64,000 bases of DNA, taken from positions 779-64,778 of the forward strand of contig CAZBMD010000005.1 of the NCBI GenBank assembly GCA_964493325.1, written 5' to 3'. The notes below the pieces were generated by a model that was not told the DNA's origin, ran no database searches, and was given only the letters and a program-made list of their open reading frames with translations. A program made the position numbers and the translations under genes. Of the stretch, positions 10,534-33,316 are shown in pieces; the first letter of the stretch is position 1, and the number at the start of each line of letters is the position of its first letter. Source of the DNA: an uncultured Pseudomonadota bacterium (GTDB lineage Bacteria; Babelota; Babeliae; Babelales; RVW-14).

Positions 10534-10546
10534 TACTCCCCCCTTT

Positions 10547-14348: not shown

Positions 14349-15614
14349 ATGAATTTTAAAAAAATTACTCTGTTGAGTACACTTCTTATAGGATGCACAC
14401 TGATAGTTGTCTGTTATATTCTTTTTACTCAAGGCAATCTTAAATTTGTTAATTTTGAAACAGCAACAAAAAATCAATCAGAAGGACCTCGTGTTCTTTT
14501 TGTTCATGTTACTCAAGGATCTGGCGGAGCAGAAACGCACAGCATAGCTCTTTATAAAGAAGCTCTGTCACACGGAATGAATGCAACTATGCTTGTCCAA
14601 AAAAATTCTTTTATCCAACAAGAACTCAAGCAGTTTCAAATTCCACACTACGAAACATCAGCTGCATCATTCATAAAAATGAGCAAACTTTACAAATATA
14701 TTCTCACAAAAAATATTCAAGCAATTCATAAAAAACAACCAATTGATATCGTACAATGCAATACCGAACGAGAAACATATGCTGCAAAAAAGGCTCAGCT
14801 TTATTACCCAATAAAAGTCATCTGGGTTCGGCACAATGAAGAGCTTCCTCGCTGCATGCAAGTCCTTAAAAATCTCAATGGCATCATTGCAGTCAGCCCA
14901 CAAATTGAACAGTTACTTACTCACGCAAACAAACAGTACAAACTCGATATTGATGAGATAAGAACTATCTACCCATTTTTTAATCAAGAACGCCTTCTTT
15001 CATACAATCCTCAAGAATCCAGAAAAATTTTTTTTCAAAAATATTTTAATCTTTCGGTTGATAACAACACTGTCTTACTGTGCATGGTTGCCAATCTATA
15101 CTCGAACATTGATCACAAAAATCATCCGCTTCTTCTCAAGGCCACAGCAAAGCTCATTCATGAAAAACAAAAAAATATCCAGGTTCTGTTGGTTGGTGAT
15201 GGCCGCGCTCGCTCAGAATTAGAAAAACAGTGCTCGGACTTAAACATCTCAAAATATGTTCATTTTCTTGGATTTACCGCGCATGTTCCCGCAATCCTCT
15301 ATCACTCAGATATTAAAGTTCTTTCGTCACGCAGCGAAGGACAAGCAATCGCCCTTACCGAAGCTGCATTCATGCAAAAACCGCTCATTGCAGCAACTGG
15401 AACAAGCGCTGTAAATATAGTCATTGATGGTAAAACAGGATACCTTTTTAGAAATAATAATGCTGATGATTTGGCAGAAAAAATTGAAATCCTAGTTGAT
15501 AATCCTCTACTTCGTATACAAATGGGAAAAGCAGCTCAAGATCTTGCTTTTAAAGAATTTGCAAATGCCAGCAAATTAAAAAAGCTGAAAAAATTCTATC
15601 AAAGACTGAAATGA
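14349..15614 (+). CDS. Glycosyltransferase, GT4 / group-1 family, with an N-terminal TM segment
   Basis: 421-aa ORF. The C-terminal half has the GT-B group-1 pattern (..LLVGDGRARSELE..HFLGF..SSRSEGQAIALTEAAFMQKPLIAT....DGKTGYLF). Confidence 0.75.
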   Translation: MNFKKITLLSTLLIGCTLIVVCYILFTQGNLKFVNFETATKNQSEGPRVLFVHVTQGSGGAETHSIALYKEALSHGMNATMLVQKNSFIQQELKQFQIPHYETSAASFIKMSKLYKYILTKNIQAIHKKQPIDIVQCNTERETYAAKKAQLYYPIKVIWVRHNEELPRCMQVLKNLNGIIAVSPQIEQLLTHANKQYKLDIDEIRTIYPFFNQERLLSYNPQESRKIFFQKYFNLSVDNNTVLLCMVANLYSNIDHKNHPLLLKATAKLIHEKQKNIQVLLVGDGRARSELEKQCSDLNISKYVHFLGFTAHVPAILYHSDIKVLSSRSEGQAIALTEAAFMQKPLIAATGTSAVNIVIDGKTGYLFRNNNADDLAEKIEILVDNPLLRIQMGKAAQDLAFKEFANASKLKKLKKFYQRLK

Positions 15615-15656: not shown

Positions 15657-17804
15657 TTAAATGTTTTCACTCATTTCTAACAACGCCTGCTGCATAATAG
15701 GACTATCTTTCAAAGAATCACACACTGCTTCGATTTCTTCATTTTGCAGAGGAGATTTTAGCGTCATCAGATAGTGAAGAATAGTAGTAAGAGTTTGTTT
15801 ACACTCAACCAACTGGTCATAATAAGCCTTAATTTTTTCGTCACCTCTTAGATACTCATTAAGTAACAGTATCGATATTGCATCATACCGGACCGAGATA
15901 GGATTCCCATCAGCATCATACGCAACAATCTCTGGATACACTTGCGCAACTTCTTCAGCAATCAAACCATATTGAAGAGTTTGTTCAGGATCATTATTAT
16001 ACGCAAAAACGACAGGACGAAGTTTTGTCACATAACGGCTGCGTTCAGATATGTCTCTGATATCTTTTTTATAATTACGTGAGGATAATACTGTACCAAG
16101 CTTGCCATCGGCTGAAATAACAACCGGCAAAGAAGAAAGCACATCAGTTGTTGATTGCCCAGAAATTCCTGCAATAAAACAGCCGGTATGGGTAGCCGTC
16201 GTACCAAGCCGTATAATTGTATCTTCTTGACCAACACCAGCAGCGCCTATATAAATATTATCACTTCCTGCTATTAGGTTTTCGCCTACATAAGCTCCAA
16301 GCCCAATATTAGACGAACCAGATTCAAGATTTAAGAAACTCTCAAACCCAATAGCGGTGTTACCCGAGTCAACAGAATTTTGTAAGGACCATGCTCCAAT
16401 AGCTGTATTGCCATTGCCAGTACTATTATTGAAAAGGCTCTCGCCTCCACAAGCTACGTTGTCTTGACCAGAAGTATTGTAAGTCATGCTCGACTGACCA
16501 ACTGCTGTATTATTACTTCCTTCATCATTACTTACAAGGCACCCAGCACCAACAGCAGTATTCAAGGCACCCGTGTAATCATTAACCAATGTCATTGTCC
16601 CCAAGCCAGTATTGCCCAAAGCACTACCTGTATCCAATGAAAAATTACCAGAACTTGATCCTACAAAGGTATTGTACATCCCATAATCACTAATAAATGA
16701 AGATCCATTAATTTGCAAAGAACCATTGTTTGCAGCTGTTGTACTTGGAAGACCAAGACCCCCACCAACAGATACCACCGTTTCAGGAGCACATGGATTA
16801 ACTTGATCTGTAAATAAAGTTCCACTGCAAAGATAAATATCACCCAAAACAGAAAGATCTTCCGCAAAGACTGGTGTGCCAACGCCAAGTTTTCCCGTTG
16901 CGGTGTCAATAACTACAGCTGTTCCATCAACAATTGCAGTATTTGCAATGGTAGGAATAAAACACCCTGTATGGGTCATAGCTGTACCCAAGCGAATAAC
17001 GCCATATTCTTGGCCACAACCTGCGTTACCAATATAAATATTATTGTTTCCTTCTACAAAATTTCCTCCAGCATAGTCTCCAAGCGCAATATTAGATGAG
17101 CCGCCAACCATGTTGATTAAACTTTCATAACCAACCGCTGTGTTAAATGATTCTGTTGAATTTTGAAGAGATCGAGTTCCAACTGCAGTATTTCCATCAC
17201 CATAGAAAGAATTTAAAAGAGCTTCTCCCCCTAAAGCAACGTTACTTTGACCGGAAATATTATTGGTCAAACTGCTCTGCCCTACTGATGTATTGTTGTT
17301 TCCATCAGTGTTATTTGCAAGGCAAGCCGCACCAACAGCTGTATTTAATGCTCCAAAAGCATTATTGGAAAGTGCAAAGGCACCAACACCTGTATTTCCA
17401 AAGGCGTCAACAGGGTCAAGAGTAAAGTTTCCAGCATTGGCTCCAGCAAAAGTATTATCCGATCCGTAGTTATGAAGGAATCTAGCCCCATCAATTTGCA
17501 AAGACCCATTGTTTGCTGTTGTTGCCGTAGGAAGATTAATGCTCCCTCCAAATGATGTCGTTGTCGTTGGACAGCATGGATCAATCTCATTGGTAAAAAA
17601 TGTCCCGCGTACGGTTAGATCTTCTCTAATAAGCAAATCATGAATACATTTAGGAAATTGCAGATTCACACATACCGAAACATCATTGTTTGTAGCCTCA
17701 CATGGAAGACCGCAATGACCTCCATACAAAGAAAATGATGTTGTAACTAATAATGAGATCGCAGCAAGCTTTTTTATAAGAACCTGCACAGAATGATAAG
17801 CCAT
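15657..17804 (-). CDS. Tail-fibre-like protein with a C-terminal Peptidase_S74 intramolecular-chaperone domain and an internally duplicated fibre unit
   Basis: I prefer ATG 17804, preceded by AAAAAAGGAGTATT. The C-terminus 'GKLGTVL-SSRNYKKDIRDI..LRPVVFAYNND..YGLIAEEVAQVYPEIVAYD..ISVRYDAISILLLNE' matches the S74 S-x-R-x-x-K signature. Two fibre units of ~250-260 aa carry NTAVG/NTAIG repeats. Confidence 0.85.
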   Translation of the reverse strand: MAYHSVQVLIKKLAAISLLVTTSFSLYGGHCGLPCEATNNDVSVCVNLQFPKCIHDLLIREDLTVRGTFFTNEIDPCCPTTTTSFGGSINLPTATTANNGSLQIDGARFLHNYGSDNTFAGANAGNFTLDPVDAFGNTGVGAFALSNNAFGALNTAVGAACLANNTDGNNNTSVGQSSLTNNISGQSNVALGGEALLNSFYGDGNTAVGTRSLQNSTESFNTAVGYESLINMVGGSSNIALGDYAGGNFVEGNNNIYIGNAGCGQEYGVIRLGTAMTHTGCFIPTIANTAIVDGTAVVIDTATGKLGVGTPVFAEDLSVLGDIYLCSGTLFTDQVNPCAPETVVSVGGGLGLPSTTAANNGSLQINGSSFISDYGMYNTFVGSSSGNFSLDTGSALGNTGLGTMTLVNDYTGALNTAVGAGCLVSNDEGSNNTAVGQSSMTYNTSGQDNVACGGESLFNNSTGNGNTAIGAWSLQNSVDSGNTAIGFESFLNLESGSSNIGLGAYVGENLIAGSDNIYIGAAGVGQEDTIIRLGTTATHTGCFIAGISGQSTTDVLSSLPVVISADGKLGTVLSSRNYKKDIRDISERSRYVTKLRPVVFAYNNDPEQTLQYGLIAEEVAQVYPEIVAYDADGNPISVRYDAISILLLNEYLRGDEKIKAYYDQLVECKQTLTTILHYLMTLKSPLQNEEIEAVCDSLKDSPIMQQALLEMSENI

Positions 17805-17844
17805 AATACTCCTTTTTTGGCTACAACTAAAAATAGAACATTTT

Positions 17845-18837
17845 TTAAGCACCATTCAATAATGCAAAAAGCTCATTAATTTGTTTCGCTTGAGTTATAA
17901 ACTTATCGTCATACAGGGAAATTACATTGCGCAGAGATTTAAGCTGTTCTTGAAGCTCTGCCAACTGCTCCTTTTGCTGCAAATATTCATTAAGAATAAG
18001 AACAGGTATTTCATCATATCTTACAGAAAGAGGATTTCCCTCTTCATCATATACGGCAAGTTCAGGAAAATTTTGCGCAACTTCCTCGGCAATCAAACCA
18101 TATTGAATTATTTTTTTAGGATCATTTTTGTAGACAAAAGCAACAGGCCGCAGCTTTGTTAAGTTATTGCTTCGAGTATAAATATCCTGAATATCATCCT
18201 TGTAACGACGAGAAGATAGGATAGTACCAAGCTTACCATCTGAAGAAATAACAACAGCCAAACTGGAAAGAATATCCGTTGTAGCTTTCCCGGCAATACC
18301 TGCAATAAAACATCCCGTATGGGTGATAGTTGAACCAAACCGCATAACATTATCCTCAGCTCCAGCGCCATTATTTCCAAGGTAAATATTATTACTGCCC
18401 AACAATAATGAAGATCCAGCATTATAACCAATTGCCGTATTTTCAGTACCGGTAATTAAGTTATTCAAACTATTTGCTCCAATACCAACGTTCGTTGTTA
18501 GGTTGTCAACATCTTCCAATACCAGACTGCCTACTCCCAAGTGACCTTCACTATTGATAACAACCGGAGAACCGCTTATCACGTTGGCAGCTGTTGAAGG
18601 AAGAGTAACCAATCCCAATATAGTGGCAGAACCCGTCATACGAATATCGGCATTATGATCAGCATTTACTTTGATAAATGAATCGTTAAGCACTCTGAGA
18701 TTTTCGTCCTGTGTCACGATATAAAATTGATCGCTCACATGCTCTATTGCGTAAAGATATCCATTTGGAATAAAGAAAATTATAAAAATCTTGAAAGAAA
18801 AAAGAATACTCCTGCTCAATCGGTTTATGTTCGTCAC
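17845..18837 (-). CDS. Tail-fibre-like protein with a C-terminal Peptidase_S74 chaperone domain (short paralog)
   Basis: 330-aa ORF with 'GKLGTIL-SSRRYKDDIQDI..LRPVAFVYKND..YGLIAEEVAQNFPELAVYD..LSVRYDEIPVLILNE'. The N-terminus is hydrophobic. Confidence 0.85.
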   Translation of the reverse strand: MTNINRLSRSILFSFKIFIIFFIPNGYLYAIEHVSDQFYIVTQDENLRVLNDSFIKVNADHNADIRMTGSATILGLVTLPSTAANVISGSPVVINSEGHLGVGSLVLEDVDNLTTNVGIGANSLNNLITGTENTAIGYNAGSSLLLGSNNIYLGNNGAGAEDNVMRFGSTITHTGCFIAGIAGKATTDILSSLAVVISSDGKLGTILSSRRYKDDIQDIYTRSNNLTKLRPVAFVYKNDPKKIIQYGLIAEEVAQNFPELAVYDEEGNPLSVRYDEIPVLILNEYLQQKEQLAELQEQLKSLRNVISLYDDKFITQAKQINELFALLNGA

Positions 18838-23376: not shown

Positions 23377-23996
23377 TCTCGATATTAAATCAACAAATGC
23401 TTTTTCTGTTATATTGCCGTTTTCATCTATGAAGAAATCGATAGTTGAAGCTCATGAAGCTATCCTTCAGAAAATTAAGATTGCTGTAGAAAACAAAAAA
23501 GTGTGTTTATAAAGTTATTCAGCTCGGGAGCAAGCTCCCAAGATTTCCGCTTTCGCGGTTAAAAAAATTAGTGCCTTGATTATTTCTAGCTTTTTCATTA
23601 CTATTTAGATATTAGATGCGAATTGTTATTGGTTTTACAAAAGGAATATATGTTACAATATATTGAATATCAGGCTCAAACCTGCCAAATGTTAGTCATT
23701 CCGGCGTCGATTCATTTTCATGATCGCGATGCTAAGACGTTCCCTTCATTTGCCTTTTTCTCAAAACGATTCTTTTCAAAACAGGGCGGCCTTCTTAAAC
23801 GATAAAGAAGCGCCTTTCAATTCGGTACGATCGACCTACGGTCTCTCGCTGCCAGCATAGTTTTTTTAATTTTTTTATTTTTGTTAGAGCTGGCAAAGCG
23901 CCAAGCTCATAATTTTTTTGTTAACTTTATGCCTTTTTTTGTTGTATTTTGCTGTGCAAAATACTTCATCAGATGAGTCATCTAGAGGATTTTATT

Positions 23997-24797
23997 ATGA
24001 TGCCTAATCATCGTTATTCACGCTTGTACTGCATATTTTTTGTACTAATTTCAACGCTTGCATTCTCTTCTTGTGGCAACAAAAATAACACTTCAAGCAA
24101 TCAACTCATAGTGGGGATGCTTCCAGCTGATGCACCATTCATGTCAACCAACAACGACGGAGTATGCGAAGGATTTGATGTTGATATAGCACATGCAATT
24201 GGTGACCTTCTGAACAAAGAGATCATTATCAAAGAGTACAATATGGCGGGATTGTGGACTGCATTTGAATTTGGAAAGATTGATCTCATGATGTGTGGCT
24301 TGAGCATCACACAAGCTCGTTTGGAAAAATTTAACATGGTTCACTACCAAGGAAGCGGCTTATCAACGTTCCCTCTTGTTTTTTGGGGAGCCGTTCCGGA
24401 AGGTATTACCTCGATAGAAGACTTGCGTGGAAAAAACATGACCATTGCTGTTTTGCCTGGAACAACCCAGGAGGAGTTTGCGCAACAGTTTGATTTTATA
24501 ACCCTCAAAACAATGGGCTCCTACGCTGAAATTATTCTTGATCTACAATACGGCAAAGTCAATGCTGCATTGTGCGATGAAGGAATTGAACCAATGGCAA
24601 AAAAGATTCCAAATCTCCAGATCCTTCAGGTACCAATCGGCATCTTTGAATCTCGTGGTCACGGCATAGCAATAAGCAGAAAAAACGCAATACTTGCCGC
24701 CCAGGTTGAAACTGCGATTGATCAACTCAAGAGCAATGGAACAATCGCCGCGTTAGAACGACGATGGGGCTTTATTCAAGAGGGCAATCATGCATAA
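23997..24797 (+). CDS. Polar amino-acid ABC transporter substrate-binding protein (SBP_bac_3), probable lipoprotein
   Basis: ATG 23997 gives MMPNHRYSRLYCIFFVLISTLAFSSCGN, a lipobox-like sequence. 'GFDVDIAHAIGDLL' and 'DLMMCGLSITQARLEKF' are typical of family 3 SBPs. The track start 23949 is a TTG. Confidence 0.8.
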   Translation: MMPNHRYSRLYCIFFVLISTLAFSSCGNKNNTSSNQLIVGMLPADAPFMSTNNDGVCEGFDVDIAHAIGDLLNKEIIIKEYNMAGLWTAFEFGKIDLMMCGLSITQARLEKFNMVHYQGSGLSTFPLVFWGAVPEGITSIEDLRGKNMTIAVLPGTTQEEFAQQFDFITLKTMGSYAEIILDLQYGKVNAALCDEGIEPMAKKIPNLQILQVPIGIFESRGHGIAISRKNAILAAQVETAIDQLKSNGTIAALERRWGFIQEGNHA

Positions 24798-25464
24798 CAC
24801 AATGATTACACAACTTAATCTATTCACGCCTTTGCTCCTGCAAGGACTATGGACAACTATCATTCTGGCTCTTTGCTCATCAATAATCGGACTTATACTT
24901 GGAACAGTAGTAGGAGTTTTAACGAGCACTCACTCTCGCATCCCAATTCTGGCACCACTTCTTGATGCTTATGTTTTTTGTATGCGTGGCATCCCATTTT
25001 TTGTACAACTTCTGATTATGTACTTTGTCATACCAAATCTATGCGGAATAGATCTCTCTCCTTTTGCCGCAGGAGCGCTAGCCCTCGGTTTGTGCTCAAC
25101 AAGCTATGTTGCAGAAATTATTCGCGCAGGTATTAACGCAATTCCCAAAGGGCAGTGGCATGCAAGCCTTGTTTTAGGATACACGCGAGCAGAAGCTCTG
25201 CGCTTTATTATTTTGCCGCAAGTTATAGCTCAGACTATTCCAACTCTTGCAAATGAACTTATATCTGTTCTTTTAAGCACTTCAATCATATCACAGATTG
25301 GTACCCTTGAGCTTACGAAAGTAGGCTCAAACATCATTTCACGCGAGATGAATCCACTTTTTATTTATCTCATTATTGCGGCAATGTACCTTGTAATCAC
25401 CTCTTTCATCTTGGGGCTAACCAGACTTATTGAAAGGAAACTGAATCATGCTCAGCGTCAATAA
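24790..25464 (+). CDS. Amino-acid ABC transporter permease (His/Glu/Gln/Arg/opine family)
   Basis: 224 aa and multi-TM. EAA-like loop 'AEALRFIILPQVIAQTIPTLANE'. It overlaps the neighbouring genes by 8 and 17 nt. Confidence 0.85.
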   Translation: MHNTMITQLNLFTPLLLQGLWTTIILALCSSIIGLILGTVVGVLTSTHSRIPILAPLLDAYVFCMRGIPFFVQLLIMYFVIPNLCGIDLSPFAAGALALGLCSTSYVAEIIRAGINAIPKGQWHASLVLGYTRAEALRFIILPQVIAQTIPTLANELISVLLSTSIISQIGTLELTKVGSNIISREMNPLFIYLIIAAMYLVITSFILGLTRLIERKLNHAQRQ

Positions 25465-26167
25465 TGTATCACTTCGATACTCAGTAACTGGTCAACAAAT
25501 TTTGAATAACATTTCTTTAAAATTTGCAAAAAACCGAATTACAACTCTTGTTGGAAAAAGTGGCGCAGGTAAAACTTCGCTGTTGAGCTGCATTGGAGGC
25601 ATTCAGACCAATTACCAGGGGATCATTGCCATCGAAGGTCAGAATATTGAACAAAGCTCACGCAAGCAACGTGCAATGCTGATAGGCTTTGTCTTTCAAC
25701 AATTCAACCTATTCCCACATTTAACCGTCTTACAAAATTGCACACAACCACTGATCTTAACAAAACAGCTTCCTCAAGACGAAGCTCTTGCTATCGCCCA
25801 TCATTGGCTTAAGGAAGTTGATATGGCAAGCTTTGCCAATGTTTATCCTCAACAAATTTCAGGAGGACAACAACAGCGTACCGCTATTGCTCGAGCACTG
25901 TGTTTATCTCCCCGAATACTTATACTTGATGAGCCAACCTCAGCGCTTGACCCTACAAACAGCAAGCTACTATGTGCGCTGCTCAAAAAACTTGCCGATC
26001 AAGGACTTACCGTAGCTGTTTCAAGCCACGATATGGACTTTGTTAGAAATGTTTTTGATCATGCATATTTGATTGATAAAGGCTCTGTAATCGACCACTA
26101 TGACTCAGAATTAGGAAATGATTTGAATAAAAATTGCCCGATCGGTCAATTTTTGAAAACAACCTAG
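25448..26167 (+). CDS. Amino-acid ABC transporter ATP-binding protein
   Basis: Walker A GKSGAGKTS, signature ISGGQQQR, Walker B ILILDEPTSALD. Confidence 0.9.
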   Translation: MLSVNNVSLRYSVTGQQILNNISLKFAKNRITTLVGKSGAGKTSLLSCIGGIQTNYQGIIAIEGQNIEQSSRKQRAMLIGFVFQQFNLFPHLTVLQNCTQPLILTKQLPQDEALAIAHHWLKEVDMASFANVYPQQISGGQQQRTAIARALCLSPRILILDEPTSALDPTNSKLLCALLKKLADQGLTVAVSSHDMDFVRNVFDHAYLIDKGSVIDHYDSELGNDLNKNCPIGQFLKTT

Positions 26168-26180
26168 CAATAACCAAATA

Positions 26181-26226
26181 ATCACAAAGGGCGCCGTGAA
26201 AAATTTTTCACGGCGCCCTTTGTGAT
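26181..26226. terminator. Bidirectional rho-independent-type hairpin between convergent genes
   Basis: Near-perfect inverted repeat atcacaaagggcgccgtgaaa...tttcacggcgccctttgtgat, with a GC-rich core and A/T tracts on both sides. Confidence 0.75.
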
Positions 26227-26245: not shown

Positions 26246-28285
26246 TTAGCTTGCGTTAGCGTACACAAGTTCTCCAGACTGCAGTTGAATTTTACCGCCT
26301 GGTAAAATTTCTACAGCCAGATCATTTGCAGCAGTTCCATTACCAAACGCTATTGCTTCAGAAGCACTTAAAGCACCGGTGTTGTAGAACTGATTCTTGT
26401 GATCAACTACCAGCGTTCCATTGGTCAAACGCATACCTGTTACTGTTGATTGAACTGTACAGCCGTTAAGAAAAAATACTGATGATCGATCAGCCATACC
26501 AAGCAAGTCTCGATTTGCAGAAACTGGCGCATAGCTGAACGTCGTTCCAATATCCATCATCAAGCGTGAACATGGCAGAATTTTTGAACTAGCGTTGGTT
26601 GGACGATAACCAAAAACATTGGTTCCAACCATACGAACATCCATCTCAAATAAAATTCTTCCAGAGGTAAATGAATAATCATTGGATAAACAAAGAACTG
26701 CGTTCTTAAGTTTAAGAGATGCACTTGTTCCCTGGCATCGAATGTTATTCTGCTTGAGTCCTTCAACAAAGATATCCTGCATTGTTAAACGACCACCAGG
26801 CCGAACAGTAATAACAGAATTGCCCATCATAATCTTGTTGCCAAAGCCCTCTATTAACGTTGTTCCCGAAAAAGTCATATTGCTTGTTAACGTCTGCATG
26901 TCTGGCAACTCAATAATCGTACCTTCACCAAATACTACAGAAGCCCCAGCTCCAAGCGTGATAGAACCATCTGTAAAGTTTTTAAGTACGACGTCTGTTA
27001 GTATCAAATTCTTCCCAGCTGATATATTAAAGTTTCCAGCCTGACGCGCAAAGTCAAAAGCATGACCATTACCATCAAGAACTGTGTGCCCTGTTACCGA
27101 AACAGTTGAGTCTACCGATACCACAAAATTCTTTTGAAGAGTGTATGTTGGCCCAGGAATTATCAGGTTGCCAGTGCCAGCAAACAAAAGGATAATTGCT
27201 TGGCTGTTGTTGGTGGTCAATCTTAGTAAAGTATTACTATTATTTTTACAACAGGACAAAAGCGCATTGCTGTTATTTGTTGTCAGTTGTAACATTGCGT
27301 TACTATCTGTTCTTTCTTTGCGGTCTAAAACAATAATTGAGTTGCTCAAATTATTGGTCAAATATAAGAGAGCGTTACTATTATTATTACAGCATGCGAG
27401 CAGCGCATTACTCAGATTTTTTGTCAAATAAAGCAGAGCGTTACTATCTGTTCTCTCTTTGCTATCTAATACAATAATCGAGTTACTCAAATTCTTGGTC
27501 AAATATAAGAGAGCGTTACTATTATTATTGCAGCATGCAAGCAGAGCATTACTCAGATTTTTTGTCAAATAAAGCAGAGCGTTACTATCTGCTCTCTCCT
27601 TGCTATTGAGCACAAGAATTGCATTACTATTATTATTGCAGCAGGCAAGAAGCGCATTGCTCAGATTTTTTGTCAGATATAAAAGAGCATTACTATCTGT
27701 TCTCTCTTTGCGATCTAATACAATAATCGAGTTACTCAAATTCTTAGTCAAATATAAGAGAGCGTTACTTGTAGCCGCAGCAAGAGATGCCCCGCCAGGA
27801 CCGTTAGCAATAATGGCGTTGCTATTGTTAGTTGTCAGTCTTAAAAGCGCATTGCTCAGATTTTTGCAGCAAACCAAAATTGCATTACTATTATTTCTTG
27901 TAAGTCTTAGGAGAGCATTACTATTATTCCTTGTAAGCCTTAAAAGAGCATTACTGTTATTTCTGATATTACGAAGAGCGTTACTATTTGAATAGACTAG
28001 ATTTGTATGAGCTCCTCCGCCTGCACGGCTAACTACAATGCCGTCCGTGTAGGTGCCGATCCAGCTTGTTGCTGCATTATTTCCAAACTCTTTAACAATT
28101 GACTCTTCGCTCCACCCTGTAATTGCTGATGCCGTGTTTACTCGTAACAGAGAATTTGTCGACTTTATCGCAATCATAGAGCTGCGATTATGAAAATTTA
28201 CGGTCGCAGAAAGTTGCTGGGAAAACCCCAAGCAGAGAACCGCAGCCATCAATAAAGATTGCTTACTAACCTGAGTATTCTTCAT
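26246..28285 (-). CDS. Secreted protein: 11-residue (hendecad) repeat array fused to a CTM module
   Basis: ATG 28285 (MKNTQVSKQSLLMAAVLCLGFSQQLSA) is preceded by GAGGGGATA. About 24 copies of S-N-A-L-L-x-L-T-x-N-x. The C-terminal module reads 'VRPGGRLTMQDIFVEGLKQNNIRCQG..NDYSFTSGRILF..FSYAPVSANRDLL..LNGCTVQSTVTG..SGELVYANAS'. Confidence 0.88.
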   Translation of the reverse strand: MKNTQVSKQSLLMAAVLCLGFSQQLSATVNFHNRSSMIAIKSTNSLLRVNTASAITGWSEESIVKEFGNNAATSWIGTYTDGIVVSRAGGGAHTNLVYSNSNALRNIRNNSNALLRLTRNNSNALLRLTRNNSNAILVCCKNLSNALLRLTTNNSNAIIANGPGGASLAAATSNALLYLTKNLSNSIIVLDRKERTDSNALLYLTKNLSNALLACCNNNSNAILVLNSKERADSNALLYLTKNLSNALLACCNNNSNALLYLTKNLSNSIIVLDSKERTDSNALLYLTKNLSNALLACCNNNSNALLYLTNNLSNSIIVLDRKERTDSNAMLQLTTNNSNALLSCCKNNSNTLLRLTTNNSQAIILLFAGTGNLIIPGPTYTLQKNFVVSVDSTVSVTGHTVLDGNGHAFDFARQAGNFNISAGKNLILTDVVLKNFTDGSITLGAGASVVFGEGTIIELPDMQTLTSNMTFSGTTLIEGFGNKIMMGNSVITVRPGGRLTMQDIFVEGLKQNNIRCQGTSASLKLKNAVLCLSNDYSFTSGRILFEMDVRMVGTNVFGYRPTNASSKILPCSRLMMDIGTTFSYAPVSANRDLLGMADRSSVFFLNGCTVQSTVTGMRLTNGTLVVDHKNQFYNTGALSASEAIAFGNGTAANDLAVEILPGGKIQLQSGELVYANAS
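27188..27991 (-). repeat. In-frame coding tandem repeat: 33-nt subunits organised into 141-nt higher-order units
   Basis: The units SNALLYLTKNL / SNALLACCNNN / SNSIIVLDRKERTD recur. Two complete 141-nt (47-aa) higher-order copies at 27305..27586 are highly similar by eye at the DNA level. Confidence 0.85.
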
Positions 28286-28584
28286 TATCCCCTCTTCTCT
28301 CCACAATTTATTATGTGATTACCTTAAACATTCTTCCTTTTCTTCTCTTAATCTAAGATAACATTTACACAGAATTCACCTTTTTACCATTGGTCTGCTA
28401 AAGAACTGAGACCAATGCTGGCAAAAAATTGGACCTCCGTTCAAGTATTAAAAATTTTTAGCTTTTTGCAAGATGAAAGAATTGAATTGAAATATTTCAA
28501 AAATCTTGTCAATTCAAAACATAGTCTCATACATTTTGAATAGGCGACGCCCTCCATTTTCAAAGTTTTTATAAAGGATATCTA

Positions 28585-30021
28585 ATGAAAGTTTACTTAT
28601 CTCACCTTTCCTTAATCCTAACAGGAAGCATCTTAACTCTCACGCTACAGGTACAGAGCTCAGCTCACTCTATGTTGCAAAAGCCTATTTTTGTTCGACA
28701 AAACAATTCTCTCTGCAATCAAGAATTAATTACTCAAAAAAACCGCATGCCAAAAATTAAAGCTGCCTTAGAAATTCTTCTCAACCAACAACTCAACGAT
28801 AACCAAGTTCCACGAATTGCAATTGCAGGAAGTGGAGGCGGCTATCGATCAATGATTGCGACACTTGGAGGCATGCTCGGACTTGAAAAAACCGGAATAC
28901 TTAATACCTGTATGTATTTTTCAACAATATCTGGATCAACATGGATGAACGCACCAATGCTGGCTCGAGATGAATCACTTTCCACTTTTCGATCATTTCT
29001 CAAAGAACAAACAACTAAAAATCTGTATATCAAAGATTTTGACCTGAGCACAATTACCTCTTCGATTATCAAAAAAGCATCATACAACCAGTACGTCAAT
29101 CTTGCCGATCTCTGGGGAGGCTTGCTTGCCGACCTTCTGCTTGAAGGGCTTCCAAATCAAGGACAAGATGTTTTTCTTTCATCGCTCGCACCAAAAATTC
29201 AATCAGGAAATCACCCTATACCACTTTTTTCTTCGATCATAGATAATACAAAACCATATACTTGGGTTGAATTTTCACCATTCGAAATTGGCAGCCAAAC
29301 TATGAATGCCTGGATTCCAACCTGGGCCTTTGGAAAAAAATTCGAAAAAGGAACCAGTACAGATGCTGCCCCTGAAGTTAATTTAGGATTTTTACTCGGC
29401 ATGTGGGGATCAGCCTACGCCTCTAATTTTAGAGATATTTTAAAAGAAATTTTTACAAAAATTGAAGAACTTGTCGCCCCTCCAAGCAAAGAAATTCGCT
29501 GCTGCGGCTGGATTTCAGATATTATAAACACAATTGGCGAAGGACAACTTCCCCCTCCAACCGTATTCAATCCAGTTCATGGGATGGCAAACCACCTCTA
29601 TGCAGACCGTCCAACCATATCACTCATCGATCCAGGCGTTTGCGTAAACATCGCCTTTCCACCTCTGCTGCGGAGAAGCATTGATATTTATATCGTCTTT
29701 GACTGTACCGATAATGCATTTTTTAACGAAATGCGTAATGTCCAAAAATATGCATCTGATAACGGATTTAAGCTTCCAGAAATTCCTCTTATCATTAACA
29801 CAGACTCTGTTTCAATTTTTGTCGATGACAAGGACCCATCTCTCCCAATAATCATTTACCTGCGTAATCAAGTTAATTATTCAACCTTTAAATATGAATA
29901 CACCAAACAAGAATTTGAAACACTCTGTACCCACATGCAAACAAAAATCGAACAAGCGCAGGATAAAATTGTGCAAGCAATTAAAAAATCAGTTGAAAAC
30001 AAAACCAAATTAATGCAATAA
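28585..30021 (+). CDS. Secreted cytosolic-phospholipase-A2-type lipase (PLA2_B / lysophospholipase catalytic domain), copy 1
   Basis: Signal-like N-terminus. 'AGSGGGYRSM' matches the cPLA2 G-G-G-x-R oxyanion/Arg motif. 'ISGSTW' matches the cPLA2 G-x-S-G-S-T-W nucleophile elbow. 'DPGVCVNIAFPPL' matches the D-x-G..N.P.P Asp motif. Confidence 0.8.
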   Translation: MKVYLSHLSLILTGSILTLTLQVQSSAHSMLQKPIFVRQNNSLCNQELITQKNRMPKIKAALEILLNQQLNDNQVPRIAIAGSGGGYRSMIATLGGMLGLEKTGILNTCMYFSTISGSTWMNAPMLARDESLSTFRSFLKEQTTKNLYIKDFDLSTITSSIIKKASYNQYVNLADLWGGLLADLLLEGLPNQGQDVFLSSLAPKIQSGNHPIPLFSSIIDNTKPYTWVEFSPFEIGSQTMNAWIPTWAFGKKFEKGTSTDAAPEVNLGFLLGMWGSAYASNFRDILKEIFTKIEELVAPPSKEIRCCGWISDIINTIGEGQLPPPTVFNPVHGMANHLYADRPTISLIDPGVCVNIAFPPLLRRSIDIYIVFDCTDNAFFNEMRNVQKYASDNGFKLPEIPLIINTDSVSIFVDDKDPSLPIIIYLRNQVNYSTFKYEYTKQEFETLCTHMQTKIEQAQDKIVQAIKKSVENKTKLMQ

Positions 30022-30041
30022 AGCTTAAGGAGAGCGATTCT

Positions 30042-31685
30042 ATGAAAAAATTAATTTTAGGATTCTTGCTTCTTTCTACCATAGCCTTAGTCCAACCTCA
30101 ACAAGAATCACAAATTAAACCTCAAGAAAAAGCAAAAGAAGGAAAACTTAGCCTTATTCAAAAGGCATTATTTTCAGCTCTCCATTTACCTCAACTAACA
30201 AAAATAGATCCTATTTTTCTTCGCAAAGGAACTGATTTATGTGAAGAAGAAAAAGAATCAATTAAAATACGTCAAAAAACAACCCATAAAGCACTTCAAA
30301 AATTACTCAATGACCAAACACTAGATGAAGACTCAATGCCATCCATTGGGATTGTTTCAAGCGGAGGTGGCGAAAGAGCTATGATTTCAACGATTGGCCT
30401 TCTTGCAGGATTGCAGCAAAACGGCATTGTTGACTGTTGCCAATATATATCCACGCTCTCAGGATCAACATGGGCAATTCTCTCATGGATTTTTCACGAT
30501 ATATCACTACTAGAATTAGGAAAATTTCTAAGAAAAAATCAGATCACAAAAACAGTTAATCTTACTAAACAAGATTATGAAGCAACAGTTCATCGTCTTT
30601 TAGAAAAAATGGCATATGATCAACCCATTAGTTTTGGTGACCTTTGGGGCGCTTTTTTAACATCGCTTCTTTTTTCAGACCTACCAAATCGCGGCCACTC
30701 ATTAAAAATTTCTTCAATTCAAGGAAAAATTTTAGAGGGAAATTATCCTATGCCTATTTTCACCTGCATAGAAAATGATTCAGGGCAATTTGCAGAGTGG
30801 ATAGAAGTTTCACCCTTTGAAGCTGGATCAAAATATTTTAAAGCGTGGTGTCCATTATCTGCTTTTGGCAAAAAATTTGTAAAAGGCCAGACCACAGATC
30901 CTGCCCCAGAACAATCACTTGGCTTTTTTATCAGTGTCTTCGGATCTGCATACGCGGTTACATTTCACAGAATTCTTTTTGAAATATATTGGCAGCTAAA
31001 AGCTTCGTTGCAAGCTCGTCTCGATAAACTTCCTCTCCCTAAAACGATCACAAATAATTTGAGTTCATTTATCCTTAGAAATTTTGATAAATTTCTCAAT
31101 TCCGATAAATCTGATTTCACTAAGGATATTCAATTTTCACCACCAGAAGTAAGAAACCTAACGTACAAAATGTCTGGGTATCCTCTTGAAAAAAGTAAAT
31201 TTCTTCAACTTTTTGATGCCGGCATTGATTTTAATCTGCCTTTTCCACCACTCATGAGACGCGGTGTTGATGTTATGATTGTTTGTGATGCTTCATCCAA
31301 TATTAATGATGGACCAGACCATGCCATGCGGGGCGCAATGGCGTATGCCAAGCGCAAAGGGTATTCATTTCCCCAAATAGATTTTACCAATATCGATAAA
31401 AAAAGAGTAAACCTGTTCTACGATGAAAACGATAGTAGAGCTCCAATAATCGTCTATTGCCCCAATCTTAAACCATTTCCCACGCTGAAATTTACATACA
31501 CTGATAAAGAATTTAAAAATCTTGAAACATTCATGCGTGAATCAGGAGTACAAGCAAAAGACACTATCATACAGGCAATTAAAATTGCAATGCAAAATAA
31601 ACAGGCTAACAACTCTATTGATAGTAATGATCTGAGTAAAATATTAGACCAACTTGATGAAGATTACATATCAAAAGGAATGTGA
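30042..31685 (+). CDS. Secreted cPLA2-type lipase (PLA2_B), copy 2
   Basis: 'SSGGGERAM', 'LSGSTW', 'FDAGIDFNLPFPPLMRRGVDVMIVCDAS'. Confidence 0.82.
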   Translation: MKKLILGFLLLSTIALVQPQQESQIKPQEKAKEGKLSLIQKALFSALHLPQLTKIDPIFLRKGTDLCEEEKESIKIRQKTTHKALQKLLNDQTLDEDSMPSIGIVSSGGGERAMISTIGLLAGLQQNGIVDCCQYISTLSGSTWAILSWIFHDISLLELGKFLRKNQITKTVNLTKQDYEATVHRLLEKMAYDQPISFGDLWGAFLTSLLFSDLPNRGHSLKISSIQGKILEGNYPMPIFTCIENDSGQFAEWIEVSPFEAGSKYFKAWCPLSAFGKKFVKGQTTDPAPEQSLGFFISVFGSAYAVTFHRILFEIYWQLKASLQARLDKLPLPKTITNNLSSFILRNFDKFLNSDKSDFTKDIQFSPPEVRNLTYKMSGYPLEKSKFLQLFDAGIDFNLPFPPLMRRGVDVMIVCDASSNINDGPDHAMRGAMAYAKRKGYSFPQIDFTNIDKKRVNLFYDENDSRAPIIVYCPNLKPFPTLKFTYTDKEFKNLETFMRESGVQAKDTIIQAIKIAMQNKQANNSIDSNDLSKILDQLDEDYISKGM

Positions 31686-31687
31686 TC

Positions 31688-33316
31688 ATGGTGATAAAAA
31701 TTTCGGGGCTCATCCTTCTTGCAACAATCAGTTTGATACAAGCACAAACGTCATCACCAGTTGATACACATAATAAACAAGGCTCTAACCACCTTGACCT
31801 AATCAAACAAGCAATAGTCTCCACCCTCCATCTCTCTCAACCAAAAAAAATTGATCCTATCTTTTTACGAACCGGCAATGATTTATGTAAAGAAGAAAAA
31901 AATAGTATCGCAGGACGTCAACCTAAAATTCATCGAGCTCTTGAACAATTATTAAGTCAACGGTTAGACAAAGAATCAATCCCTAAAATAGGAATAGTTA
32001 CAAGTGGTGGCGGCGCTCGCGCAATGATATCAACAATAGGACTTCTCGAAGGACTATCTCAAACGGGCGTCCTTGATTGTTGTGAGTATATATCATCACT
32101 TTCAGGATCAACATGGGGCATTCTGGTATGGCTTTTTCAGGGAATCTCTCCTCTGGAATTAGGAAAGTTCTTAAGAGAAAAAAATATTACAAAAAAAATC
32201 AAACTCACAGATACTGATTATGCAGCAACCATAAATAGAATTTTAGCCAAAATTGCGTATGACCAACCAATAAACTTTGGTGATATTTTTGGAACTTTTT
32301 TAACAGCGCTTTTTTTCTCCAATCTACCAGATAGAGGACATTCGTTAAAACTTTCATCGATACAAGAAAAAATATTACGCGGAAACTTTCCTTTTCCTAT
32401 TTTTGCCAGCATTAAAAACAATGGCAATGCTTACGAATGGTTTGAAGTATCTCCCTTTGAAGCGGGATCTGACTTTTTAAACATCTGGTGTCCAATTACA
32501 GCTTTTGGAAAAAAATTTAAAAACGGACAAAGCACCGATGCTGCCCCAGAACAGCCGCTTGGATTTTTTTTAAGTATGTTTGGATCTGCCTATGCTGTAC
32601 CATTTTATGAAATTCTCTTTGGCGTGTATCAAGAACTGAAAAACTCATTACAAGCCCAGCTTGCAAAACTGCCATTACCTCACATTGTGACAAAAACTCT
32701 TACAGACATGATATTAAAAAATTTCGATAAATTTCTTAATTCAGATAAATCTAATTTTACCAGGGACCTTCAATTTTCTCCGCCAGAAGTAAAAAACCTT
32801 AGTTACAAAATACCTGGATTGCCTTTTGAAAAAGAAAAATACATTCAACTTTTTGATGCTGGAATCGATTTTAACTTGTCGTTTCCATCGCTTATGAGAC
32901 GAGGCGTTGAGCTCATGATTGTAACAGACGCATCAGCCAGCATTAGCCTTGGCCTAAAAGGTGCAAGCAATTACGCCAAACGGAAAGGGTATGCATTTCC
33001 TCCAATCAATTTCACCGACATCGACAAGAAAAGAGTTAGCTTATTTTATGATGAAAACGATAGCAGTGCACCGGTAATCGTCTATTGCCCCAACCTCAAA
33101 CCATTTCCTACGCTGAAATTTACGTACACTGATCAAGAATTTAAAGATCTTGAAACATTCATGCGCGAATCAGGAGTACAAGCCAAAGACACTATCATAC
33201 AGGCAATCAAAATTGCGATGCGGAATAAACAAGTTAACAGCTCTATTGATAGTAATACGCTAAGTAAAATATTAGACCAACTTGATGCAGATTACACAAA
33301 TAAGCCTTTAAAATAA
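31688..33316 (+). CDS. Secreted cPLA2-type lipase (PLA2_B), copy 3
   Basis: 'TSGGGARAM', 'LSGSTW', 'FDAGIDFNLSFPSLMRRGVELMIVTDAS'. It looks closely similar to copy 2 by eye. I prefer ATG 31688, with AAGGAA 7 nt upstream, over the track's GTG 31682. Confidence 0.82.
   Translation: MVIKISGLILLATISLIQAQTSSPVDTHNKQGSNHLDLIKQAIVSTLHLSQPKKIDPIFLRTGNDLCKEEKNSIAGRQPKIHRALEQLLSQRLDKESIPKIGIVTSGGGARAMISTIGLLEGLSQTGVLDCCEYISSLSGSTWGILVWLFQGISPLELGKFLREKNITKKIKLTDTDYAATINRILAKIAYDQPINFGDIFGTFLTALFFSNLPDRGHSLKLSSIQEKILRGNFPFPIFASIKNNGNAYEWFEVSPFEAGSDFLNIWCPITAFGKKFKNGQSTDAAPEQPLGFFLSMFGSAYAVPFYEILFGVYQELKNSLQAQLAKLPLPHIVTKTLTDMILKNFDKFLNSDKSNFTRDLQFSPPEVKNLSYKIPGLPFEKEKYIQLFDAGIDFNLSFPSLMRRGVELMIVTDASASISLGLKGASNYAKRKGYAFPPINFTDIDKKRVSLFYDENDSSAPVIVYCPNLKPFPTLKFTYTDQEFKDLETFMRESGVQAKDTIIQAIKIAMRNKQVNSSIDSNTLSKILDQLDADYTNKPLK

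What the first reader, a model, noticed from the sequence alone, without database searches (positions are those of the whole stretch)
26246..28285. Distant eighth CTM gene fuses the module to a hendecad (11-residue) repeat array with recurring Cys-Cys pairs, encoded by near-identical 141-nt DNA repeats
Twelve kb from the main array, a secreted protein ends in the same CTM. Its landmarks are VRPGG, NNIRC, DYSFTSG, FSYAP, LNGCTVQSTVTG and SGELVYANAS.

Instead of a propeller it carries about 24 units of S-N-A-L-L-x-L-T-x-N-x (27188..27991). These are interspersed with 14-residue SNSIIVLDRKERTD units and with units containing A-C-C, V-C-C or S-C-C.

An 11-residue periodicity is characteristic of hendecad, non-heptad coiled-coil stalks. 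Two 141-nt higher-order copies (27305..27586) look near-identical, so repeat number is likely unstable by slipped-strand mispairing or recombination.

This gene supports the idea of the CTM as a portable scaffold for interchangeable heads or stalks.
Basis: partly seen in the sequence, partly recalled or inferred. Interest (0 to 1): 0.6.

Follow-up and report, generated by a model that had tools for sequence, protein, structure and literature searches.

The report
Length-variable repeat spacer before a beta-helix
A secreted protein of an amoeba-associated bacterium (Dependentiae) carries a real 11/14-residue "S-N-A" repeat block that gains and loses whole units between near-identical strains, but it looks more like a strand-and-turn rod than the coiled-coil stalk first proposed.

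Summary
Window 26246..28285 (-) encodes a 679-aa protein with four parts: a signal peptide, a ~70-aa N-domain, 23 tandem units and a C-terminal module.

- **Units:** seventeen 11-mers, four 14-mers, one 18-mer and a degenerate last unit. Five units carry Cys-Cys. Two 141-nt higher-order copies are 131/141 identical.
- **C-terminal module (CTM):** it occurs nine times in seven genes of the window. AlphaFold2 models it as a right-handed beta-helix at pLDDT 96-98.
- **Instability: supported.** One strain, about 99% identical, lacks exactly one 141-nt copy. A 95-97% identical strain differs by whole-unit indels. Positional orthologues carry 0, about 14 or 23 units.
- **Portable CTM: supported.** It combines with WD40 propellers, with arrays, or with itself.
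- **Hendecad coiled coil: not supported.** With a whole-protein alignment AF2 gives helices below pLDDT 50. With a unit-level alignment it gives one beta-strand per unit (pLDDT 62, pTM 0.58) and only beta-solenoid look-alikes. The array has 21% Asn, Gly at position 7 in 38% of family units, and Gly/Pro-rich insertions at one fixed point in the unit.

The fold is unresolved. The repeat matches no Pfam, NCBIfam, PHROG or PDB entry, and its profile finds only 189 clusters among 1.84 billion. This is an ordinary kind of protein built from an undescribed repeat.

The parts
26246..28285 (-). Whole gene: 679-aa exported modular protein, stop codon included
   Evidence: ORF. ATG 28285 follows a GAGGGG site. 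The identical or 1-aa-different protein is seen on at least 5 public contigs. Between strains the C-terminal domain shows only 2 amino-acid changes for 24 nt differences.
28205..28285 (-). Predicted Sec signal peptide (aa 1-27, MKNTQVSKQSLLMAAVLCLGFSQQLSA|TV)
   Evidence: Read from the sequence. AF2 models a helix at aa 8-21. No signal-peptide predictor was run.
27989..28204 (-). N-terminal domain (aa 28-99) with the conserved G-W-x-E-x-S-I motif
   Evidence: Conserved in orthologues and most family members. AF2 confidence is low, pLDDT about 40-74.
27173..27988 (-). S-N-A repeat array (aa 100-371): 23 units of 11, 14 or 18 residues
   Evidence: Unit table. TRF. Family-wide spacing of 11 (566 cases) and 14 (259 cases).
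27446..27586 (-). Higher-order repeat copy 1 (47 aa: 11+11+11+14)
   Evidence: 131/141 nt identical to copy 2. A 141-nt block offset by 7 nt from this copy (about 27439..27579) is absent from strain L001; its exact position is ambiguous because the copies repeat.
27305..27445 (-). Higher-order repeat copy 2
27857..27889 (-). Cys-Cys unit SNAILVCCKNL
27629..27661 (-). Cys-Cys unit SNALLACCNNN
27521..27553 (-). Cys-Cys unit SNALLACCNNN
27380..27412 (-). Cys-Cys unit SNALLACCNNN
27239..27271 (-). Cys-Cys unit SNALLSCCKNN
27770..27823 (-). 18-residue unit SNAIIANGPGGASLAAAT with a Gly/Pro loop
   Evidence: The family's 17- to 19-residue units are Gly/Pro-rich in the middle.
26249..27172 (-). C-terminal module (CTM, aa 372-679): right-handed parallel beta-helix
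   Evidence: AF2 pLDDT 96-98 with three strands per coil of 21-24 residues. Foldseek matches are beta-helices only: TibA, Ag43, RbmB, polygalacturonases and tailspikes. 27-39% identical to eight other copies in the window.
26181..26226 (.). Perfect 20-bp-stem hairpin between the convergent ends of this gene and the ABC-transporter ATPase gene; likely a bidirectional terminator

Best explanation
The gene encodes a Sec-exported, modular protein of a Dependentiae (TM6, Babeliales-like) bacterium. It probably acts at the cell surface or after release, in contact with the host.

Its parts run in this order: signal peptide, small N-terminal domain, S-N-A repeat array, and a C-terminal right-handed beta-helix of the adhesin / pectate-lyase-like kind.

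Each array unit keeps a fixed head (S-N-A plus two or three aliphatic residues) and a fixed tail ([K/R]-[N/T]-[N/D/T]). All extra length goes in between. The array is therefore most likely a stack of strand-plus-turn elements: a beta-solenoid-like rod that lengthens the beta-helix. It is less likely an alpha-helical coiled coil.

The units are encoded by 33-nt repeats organised into a 141-nt higher-order repeat. Unequal recombination or replication slippage adds or removes whole units in frame, so the length of the spacer between the N-domain and the beta-helix varies among strains.

- **Shown:** the anatomy, the family-wide unit grammar, the beta-helix fold of the CTM, and whole-unit length polymorphism.
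- **Inferred:** export, the beta-type fold of the array, and the spacer or host-contact role.
For: **Anatomy and repeats:**

**Lineage.** All named homologues are Babeliales, Dependentiae or TM6. [quoted passage not shown]

**CTM fold.** AF2 pLDDT is 96-98. Structural neighbours are all beta-helices. One relative passes the Pfam Pectate_lyase_5 'adhesive domain' threshold.

**Conserved architecture.** In about 60 relatives the array lies 12-60 residues before a CTM that ends the protein.

**Beta-type array.**
- AF2 with the unit-level alignment A2 places one strand on residues 2-7 of every unit (pLDDT 61.6, pTM 0.58).
- Its Foldseek neighbours are solely beta-solenoids: Ag43, MpAFP, IcsA, PL3, SufD, CsgA and RTX.
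- Two 11-mers make 22 residues, which equals the 21-24-residue coil of the CTM.
- Units of 13-35 residues keep head and tail, while the middle holds Gly/Pro. Pro occurs in 73% of 19-mers and Gly in 63% of 18-mers.
- Relatives tolerate 16-residue Pro-flanked helical inserts at the same point.
- The array is 21% Asn and only 14% D+E+K+R+Q.

**Length variation.**
- One exact 141-nt deletion in a strain that is 98.6-99.5% identical.
- Whole-unit indels in a strain that is 94-97% identical.
- Syntenic orthologues with 0, about 14 and 23 units.
- Family range of 0-40 units.
Against: **The fold of the array is not settled.**
- The beta model is only moderately confident. Its five seeds scatter widely: 61.6, 50.3, 47.9, 36.3 and 25.6.
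- All its structural matches have E above 0.5.
- The first AF2 run drew low-confidence helices over the same residues.
- Only monomers could be modelled. Hendecad and polar-core coiled coils are known to be hard for AlphaFold and to look disordered (PMC11676326; PMC13580157).
- Spacings of 11, 14 and 18 are all sums of 7 and 11, as in non-heptad coiled coils.
- The window's own units (SNALLYLTKNL) are more helix-friendly than the family consensus.

**No membrane anchor or secretion signal other than the N-terminal signal peptide was found.** Surface display is therefore a guess.

**The length variants come from short-read metagenome assemblies.** The 23-unit allele recurs unchanged on at least 5 contigs, so the array is polymorphic rather than hypermutable.
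Confidence: 0.5

Rival explanations
1. The array is a parallel, probably trimeric, non-heptad coiled coil built from hendecads (11), double heptads (14) and 7+11 units (18).

Asn just before S-N-A would sit in the core (N at h or d), as in the ion-binding Asn layers of trimeric autotransporter stalks. The Cys-Cys pairs would sit at d/e and form interchain disulfide rings.
For: - The spacings 11, 14 and 18 dominate, and minor peaks such as 25, 28 and 29 are also sums of 7 and 11.
- The register a4-d7-e8-h11 puts L, L/C, T/I/C and N in the core. The 14-mer reads a4-d7-a11-d14, for example SNAIVKNTEDIKNN = IxxNTxxIxxNS.
- N at position d, followed by T at e, is the commonest polar core motif of trimeric autotransporter adhesin (TAA) stalks. 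Such cores score as disordered or low-confidence (PMC13580157).
- The period-3.67 harmonic is substantial, 100.8.
- The first AF2 run drew helices across runs of 11-mers.
- Isolated Cys-Cys units are most easily satisfied in an in-register oligomer.
Against: - Six consecutive hydrophobic residues followed by five polar ones make a banded pattern, not an amphipathic one. Period 11 power is 200.9 against 100.8.
- L5 and Y/F6 would be exposed yet are conserved.
- N2, K/R9 and N10, which would face outward, are 74-95% conserved.
- Gly is at position 7 in 38% of units, and tails such as GDRNNSN occur.
- Pro/Gly loops and 16-residue inserts occur inside units.
- Charged residues plus Gln make up only 14%.
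- The AF2 run with the better alignment gives beta-strands.
- No YadA-type anchor or other trimerisation domain is present in any relative.
Confidence: 0.2
2. The array is a flexible, largely unstructured Asn/Leu-rich low-complexity linker. Its periodicity reflects recent DNA amplification rather than a fold.
For: - pLDDT is below 50 over most of the array in the full-length model.
- No match in any family or structure library.
- Orthologue P0008 does without the array altogether.
Against: - The unit grammar (S-N-A head, basic and Asn tail, lengths of 11 and 14) is kept in proteins whose beta-helix domains are only 30-40% identical, and in 189 clusters at 50% identity. That is far beyond recent amplification.
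- Each unit has a hydrophobic block, which is unlike a disordered linker.
- The unit-level AF2 model reaches pTM 0.58.
Confidence: 0.15
3. The copy-number differences between strains are assembly artefacts, with repeats collapsed in short-read metagenome assemblies, rather than real alleles.
For: - L001 and L002 are contigs of 11.6 kb and 5.5 kb from metagenome assemblies. Each variant is seen once.
- The 23-unit form recurs on several contigs.
Against: - The two 141-nt copies share no identical run longer than 41 nt, whereas the L001 contig carries a k=119 label (k119_...).
- L002 also has an extra 33-nt unit, and collapse cannot create that.
- More distant syntenic orthologues differ hugely, from 0 to 23 units.
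Confidence: 0.1

Closest known systems
Self-associating autotransporter passengers with repeat-built beta-helices (AIDA-I, TibA, Ag43)
   Same: - Exported protein dominated by a right-handed beta-helix.
- TibA (4q1q) is the best PDB neighbour of the CTM and Ag43 (4kh3) the best neighbour of the array model.
- Short imperfect sequence repeats each contribute a fixed piece of a coil.
   Different: - No C-terminal beta-barrel translocator. The protein ends with the beta-helix.
- The matches are weak: E 4.6e-3 and 0.52.
- The unit sequence is unrelated.
- The lineage is Dependentiae.
Polar-core, non-heptad coiled-coil stalks of trimeric autotransporter adhesins (N at position d; hendecad/pentadecad stalks)
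   Same: - 11- and 14-residue periods.
- A recurrent Asn followed by Ser that can be placed in a core position.
- Low AlphaFold confidence is expected for such stalks (PMC13580157, PMC11676326).
   Different: - No YadA anchor, head or neck.
- A contiguous hydrophobic block.
- Gly/Pro inside units.
- Very few charged residues.
- The better AF2 model is all-beta.
Curli subunit CsgA-type two-sheet beta-solenoid
   Same: By my recollection of CsgA, each 22-23-residue curlin repeat is two strand-plus-turn halves of 11-12 residues with conserved Ser, Asn and Gln. This shows that an 11-residue strand-turn unit can build a solenoid. The CsgA fibril (8enq) is among the neighbours of the array model.
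   Different: Here the array is part of a larger protein with a globular beta-helix, not a secreted amyloid subunit.
Length-polymorphic tandem-repeat surface proteins of bacteria (for example alpha C/Rib and other repeat-spacer adhesins)
   Same: - Highly similar DNA repeats.
- In-frame gain and loss of whole units between strains.
- The repeat region lies between two other domains.
   Different: - Unrelated repeat sequence and fold.
- The host is a protist rather than an animal with adaptive immunity.
- No cell-wall or membrane anchor was identified.

Membership tests
Hendecad (11/3) coiled coil | 11-residue sequence periodicity | tested here: met
   Seventeen 11-mers in the gene. A spacing of 11 occurs 566 times in the family.
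Hendecad (11/3) coiled coil | Amphipathic pattern: hydrophobic residues at a, d, e and h and polar residues elsewhere, so that the 3.67-residue harmonic dominates | tested here: not met
   Positions 3-8 form one hydrophobic block. Period-11 power is 200.9 against 100.8 for period 3.67. Positions 5 and 6, which would be b and c, are conserved hydrophobic or aromatic.
Hendecad (11/3) coiled coil | Uninterrupted helix-compatible sequence, without recurrent Gly/Pro | tested here: not met
   Gly is at position 7 in 217 of 566 units. There is a GPGG in the window's 18-mer. Pro occurs in 7-73% of the longer unit classes.
Hendecad (11/3) coiled coil | Helical structure prediction with knobs-into-holes packing in an oligomer | tested here: inconclusive
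   Monomer AF2 gives helices at pLDDT below 50 with alignment A1, and beta-strands at pLDDT 62 with alignment A2. Multimer modelling is not available here.
Trimeric autotransporter adhesin | C-terminal YadA-type membrane anchor | tested here: not met
   No Pfam hit in the target or in the eight homologues and four largest relatives that were scanned. The protein ends in the beta-helix.
Classical autotransporter (AIDA-I / Ag43 / TibA type) | Right-handed beta-helical passenger | tested here: met
   AF2 pLDDT 96-98. The Foldseek neighbours TibA and Ag43 have weak E-values.
Classical autotransporter (AIDA-I / Ag43 / TibA type) | C-terminal 12-strand beta-barrel translocator | tested here: not met
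   No Pfam autotransporter domain. In most relatives the CTM reaches within 0-14 residues of the C-terminus.
Pectate-lyase-like beta-helix (Pfam Pectate_lyase_5, 'adhesive domain') | Profile match above the curated threshold | tested here: inconclusive
   The target scores E 0.023 and 15.3 bits against a 24.3-bit cut-off. Relative P0047 scores 25.0 bits and passes.
Curli CsgA-like beta-solenoid | Sequence homology to curlin repeats | tested here: not met
   hhalign probability 0.04%. The CsgA sequence was recalled from memory.
Length-polymorphic tandem-repeat (contingency-type) gene | High-identity DNA repeats plus in-frame whole-unit indels between closely related strains | tested here: met
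   TRF. Copies 93% identical. A 141-nt deletion and indels on the 33-nt unit grid (+33, -33, about -273 nt) in strains that are 95-99% identical.

The most novel reading that the evidence does not exclude
The S-N-A repeat is a previously undescribed fibrous fold confined to Dependentiae. There are two candidate forms:
- a minimal solenoid built from 11-residue strand-turn units;
- an in-register oligomeric rod, with a polar Asn core, stapled at intervals by interchain Cys-Cys disulfide rings.

In either form its length would be tuned by recombination to set how far the N-terminal domain is held from the beta-helix during contact with the protist host.
Probability: 0.2. Interest if true: 0.65.

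Novelty: new variant of a known kind. Interest (0 to 1): 0.4.

Why it matters
Dependentiae are widespread, uncultured or barely cultured parasites of protists, and almost nothing is known about their surface or secreted proteins.

This locus defines a lineage-restricted module family: the S-N-A array plus a C-terminal beta-helix, sometimes with WD40 propellers. The family is expanded in the genome and varies in length between near-identical strains, which is the usual signature of host-interface proteins.

For structural biology, the repeat is a compact and very regular 11/14-residue unit with no known family. It is a tractable target for deciding between a polar-core non-heptad coiled coil and a minimal beta-solenoid.

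The kind of protein, a repeat-spacer adhesin-like protein, is familiar. The finding does not open a long-standing question.

Tried and rejected
**Library searches that found nothing**
- Pfam, NCBIfam and PHROGs on the whole protein and on each part gave nothing credible for the array.
- Weak Pfam hits on relatives (MYND, DUF7761, Peptidase_M48 and others) are short low-complexity matches and were discarded.
- phmmer against PDB sequences gave only chance PCNA and acetyltransferase matches.
- Foldseek of the full model against PDB and BFVD gave generic beta-helix matches only, none with E at or below 0.001.

**Searches that were uninformative or unavailable**
- An array-only word-index search returned just 13 proteins and missed the closest homologues.
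- The genome-contig scan did not contain the source genome. The nearest relative was 61% identical, in MAGs titled 'uncultured Pseudomonadota'.
- The paper on new hendecad families (J Struct Biol 2023, 215:108007) is not held. I could not check whether this family is listed there.

**Ideas considered and dropped**
- Leucine-rich repeat: the L/N spacing does not fit LxxLxLxxN, and the units are too short.
- Lipoprotein: the signal peptide has no lipobox.
- Relationship to the YadA-head or Hep_Hag repeats of the neighbouring tail-fibre-like genes: only an S-x-A-I resemblance, with different spacing.
- The antisense ORFs inside the array (27141..27431 and 27600..27995, plus strand): treated as by-products of the repeat, not genes.

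**Idea left open**
- The N10-x-S1 sequon or glycosylation idea is speculation only.
Full report
**1. What is there**

The finding sits on the minus strand. The ORF listing gives 26246..28306 from a TTG. A perfect 20-bp-stem hairpin at 26181..26226 separates its 3' end from the convergent ABC-transporter ATPase gene.

The protein reads as follows:
- a Sec-type signal peptide (aa 1-27, judged by eye);
- a roughly 70-aa N-domain;
- 23 tandem units (aa 100-371, window 27988..27173);
- a 308-aa C-terminal module (CTM).

The units comprise seventeen 11-mers of the form S-N-A-L-L-x-L-T-x-N-x, four 14-mers (SNSIIVLD[RS]KERTD and SNAILVLNSKERAD), one 18-mer (SNAIIANGPGGASLAAAT) and a degenerate last unit. 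Five 11-mers carry Cys-Cys.

At the DNA level, TRF finds period 141, 2.2 copies, 92% matches and score 536. The two full copies, 27586..27446 and 27445..27305, are 131/141 identical, and most of the differences are synonymous. No other frame of the window contains such an array. The only quibbles are that '93%' is more accurate than 'near-identical', and that the CTM occurs nine times in seven genes, so 'eighth gene' is a miscount.

**2. Whose gene, and is it real**

Homologues number 82 in the word-indexed search. Every one that has a name comes from Candidatus Babeliales, Dependentiae or TM6. The identical or 1-aa-different protein is on at least five public contigs, one of them 1.35 Mb.

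Between the window and a 95-97% identical strain, the CTM shows 24 nucleotide differences but only two amino-acid changes. The gene is therefore under purifying selection.

The neighbourhood is conserved in relatives: three tandem PLA2_B genes on one side and an amino-acid ABC transporter on the other.

**3. The C-terminal module**

AF2 with a 79-sequence alignment models aa 372-679 at pLDDT 96-98. The model is all-beta, with three short strands per coil of 21-24 residues.

Foldseek neighbours in the PDB and in viral models are exclusively right-handed beta-helices: TibA, Ag43, RbmB, polygalacturonases, tailspikes and neck appendages. All have weak E-values, the best being 4.6e-3. The target grazes Pfam Pectate_lyase_5 ('putative pectate lyase-like adhesive domain') at E 0.023, and one relative passes that threshold.

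Within the window the module follows four WD40 propellers, occurs once in a 503-aa protein and occurs three times in a 1179-aa protein. In the wider family it nearly always ends the protein, with the S-N-A array 12-60 residues before it. A few relatives have about 370 residues after it.

So the 'portable module' reading is supported. 'Scaffold' remains an interpretation. No anchor domain, neither an autotransporter barrel nor a YadA anchor, was found in the target or the relatives scanned.

**4. The array as a family-wide module**

Across 79 homologues the distance between successive S-N-A anchors is 11 in 566 cases and 14 in 259 cases. Spacings of 18 (38 cases) and 17 (24 cases) are minor peaks, and everything else is rare.

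The 11-mer consensus is S(100% by definition)-N(95%)-A(82%)-[L/F]-[L/A]-[Y/F]-[G/L/C]-[I/C/T]-[K/R](84%)-N(74%)-N(62%). Cys-Cys always lies five and four residues before the next Ser (positions 7-8 of 11-mers, 10-11 of 14-mers).

Longer units keep the head (S-N-A plus aliphatic residues) and the tail ([K/R]-[T/N]-[N/D]). All extra residues go between them, and the insert is rich in Gly and Pro. Pro occurs in 73% of 19-mers and Gly in 63% of 18-mers. Some relatives carry 16-residue acidic helices flanked by Pro or Gly at the same site, and some of those lack the CTM.

A profile of the array finds only 189 clusters at E of 1e-3 or better among 1.84 billion representatives. The only recognisable partner domains are WD40 propellers. 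No Pfam, NCBIfam, PHROG or PDB sequence match exists.

**5. Coiled coil or not**

- The 11-residue period is real.
- The spacings 11, 14 and 18 are all sums of 7 and 11.
- A register a4-d7-e8-h11 (and a4-d7-a11-d14 for 14-mers) puts Leu, Leu/Cys, Thr/Ile/Cys and Asn in core positions.
- The junction N-S-N-A-[I/L] resembles the N-at-d, T/S-at-e motif of trimeric autotransporter stalks.
- Such polar cores are known to be scored as disordered, and hendecads are known to be hard for AlphaFold (PMC13580157; PMC11676326).
- The first AF2 run drew helices across runs of 11-mers, but at pLDDT 30-60.

*Against it:*
- The hydrophobic residues form one contiguous block (positions 3-8) followed by K-N-N-S-N. 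The period-11 harmonic of the hydropathy profile (200.9) is twice the 3.67 harmonic (100.8). In 14-mers the period-2 harmonic is the largest, at 199.
- Positions that would face outward (N2, K/R9, N10, L5, Y6) are among the most conserved.
- Gly occupies position 7 in 38% of units.
- Pro/Gly inserts occur inside units.
- The window's array is 21% Asn, with only 14% charged residues plus Gln.

I then built a unit-level alignment: 44 array segments aligned unit by unit on window aa 198-349. AF2's best model became all-beta, with one strand on residues 2-7 of every unit, pLDDT 61.6 and pTM 0.58. Its Foldseek neighbours were only beta-solenoids: Ag43, MpAFP, IcsA, family-3 pectate lyase, SufD, CsgA fibril and RTX. 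All had E above 0.5.

That model is not robust. Its five seeds range from 25.6 to 61.6, and only monomers could be run. Two 11-mers (22 residues) match the coil length of the adjacent beta-helix. A variable-length solenoid extension of that helix is therefore geometrically natural.

My estimate is:
- beta-type strand-turn rod, about 0.5;
- polar-core non-heptad coiled coil, about 0.2;
- flexible linker, about 0.15;
- something else, the remainder.

**6. Instability**

Locus L001 is 98.6-99.5% identical in its flanks. Its gene is identical to the window gene apart from three substitutions and a clean 141-nt deletion, exactly one higher-order copy.

Locus L002 is 94-97% identical. It has one extra SNALLRLTRNN unit (+33 nt), lacks one Cys-Cys unit (-33 nt) and lacks a further block of about 273 nt.

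The two 141-nt copies share no identical run longer than 41 nt, so collapse in the assembly that produced the k119-labelled L001 contig is unlikely. It is not excluded.

Positional orthologues beside the same PLA2_B genes carry 0 units (P0008, 419 aa), about 14 units (P0004, 569 aa) or 23 units. The family spans 0-40 units.

Every change seen in the two strains follows the unit grid and preserves the reading frame. This is length variation, not on/off switching. The recurrence of the 23-unit allele on several contigs argues against extreme mutability.

**7. Most likely working model and what remains open**

The protein is exported through Sec. Dependentiae also encode a type II secretion system (PMC4776705).

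It presents a conserved adhesin-like beta-helix joined to a small N-domain through a rod or spacer. The length of that spacer is reset by recombination among 33-nt and 141-nt repeats.

Still open:
- the role of the Cys-Cys pairs, which are isolated, 3-6 units apart and show no fixed parity. Options are a vicinal disulfide, interchain staples in an in-register oligomer, or something else;
- the near-invariance of S-N-A;
- the cellular location of the protein.

**8. Verdict**

- The headline structural claim, a hendecad coiled coil, is not supported by the best evidence obtainable here.

The kind of protein is familiar, but the repeat itself is undescribed and lineage-restricted. Interest is moderate.

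Noticed in passing
window 15657..17855 and 17845..18837 (-): Two adjacent tail-fibre or tailspike-like genes in a cellular Dependentiae genome. They have Hep_Hag-like Gly/Asn repeats and a C-terminal Peptidase_S74 intramolecular-chaperone domain (Pfam E 4e-10). PHROG tail spike, tail fibre and virion structural protein hits reach E 1e-33. A GT4-like glycosyltransferase gene (14349..15614), identified by eye only, lies between them and the CTM gene cluster.
   Followed up: partly
window 28585..33316 (+): Three tandem PLA2_B (cytosolic phospholipase A2-like) genes lie immediately upstream of the target. Two or three PLA2_B genes are kept next to the target's orthologues in L001, L002, L006, L007 and L008.
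   Followed up: partly
window 23485..26175: The complete three-gene amino-acid ABC transporter operon (binding protein, permease, ATPase) is absent from the 95-97% identical strain L002. This is a clean 2.7-kb presence/absence polymorphism next to the target gene.
   Followed up: partly
window 10547..14086 (-): One 1179-aa protein contains three successive copies of the CTM beta-helix module. The next gene (9043..10554) has one copy followed by about 60 extra residues. The module is therefore not strictly C-terminal.
   Followed up: partly
window 26181..26226: A perfect palindromic hairpin (20-bp stem, 11 G-C pairs) lies between two convergent genes. It is also present in strain L001.
   Followed up: no
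relatives P0083, P0084, P0061: In these relatives the S-N-A/Cys-Cys units alternate with about 16-residue acidic helical inserts, for example FTEEEKTDLLEDVRT. They end in a different, possibly propeller-blade-like, C-terminal region instead of the CTM. The array is therefore a module in its own right.
   Followed up: no
loci L003-L005 (genome contigs): MAGs that carry clear homologues of this Dependentiae-specific family are titled 'uncultured Pseudomonadota bacterium' in their records. This is probably a taxonomic mislabel.
   Followed up: no
window 27141..27431 and 27600..27995 (+): Antisense ORFs of 96 and 131 aa run through the array. They are Leu-rich and repetitive, and are best explained as by-products of the repeat's codon pattern rather than genes.
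   Followed up: no
array units, window 27173..27988: N10-x-S1 forms an N-x-S sequon at most 11-mer junctions. A GT9 (heptosyltransferase-family) gene lies a few kb away in the syntenic locus L006. A link to glycosylation is pure speculation.
   Followed up: no
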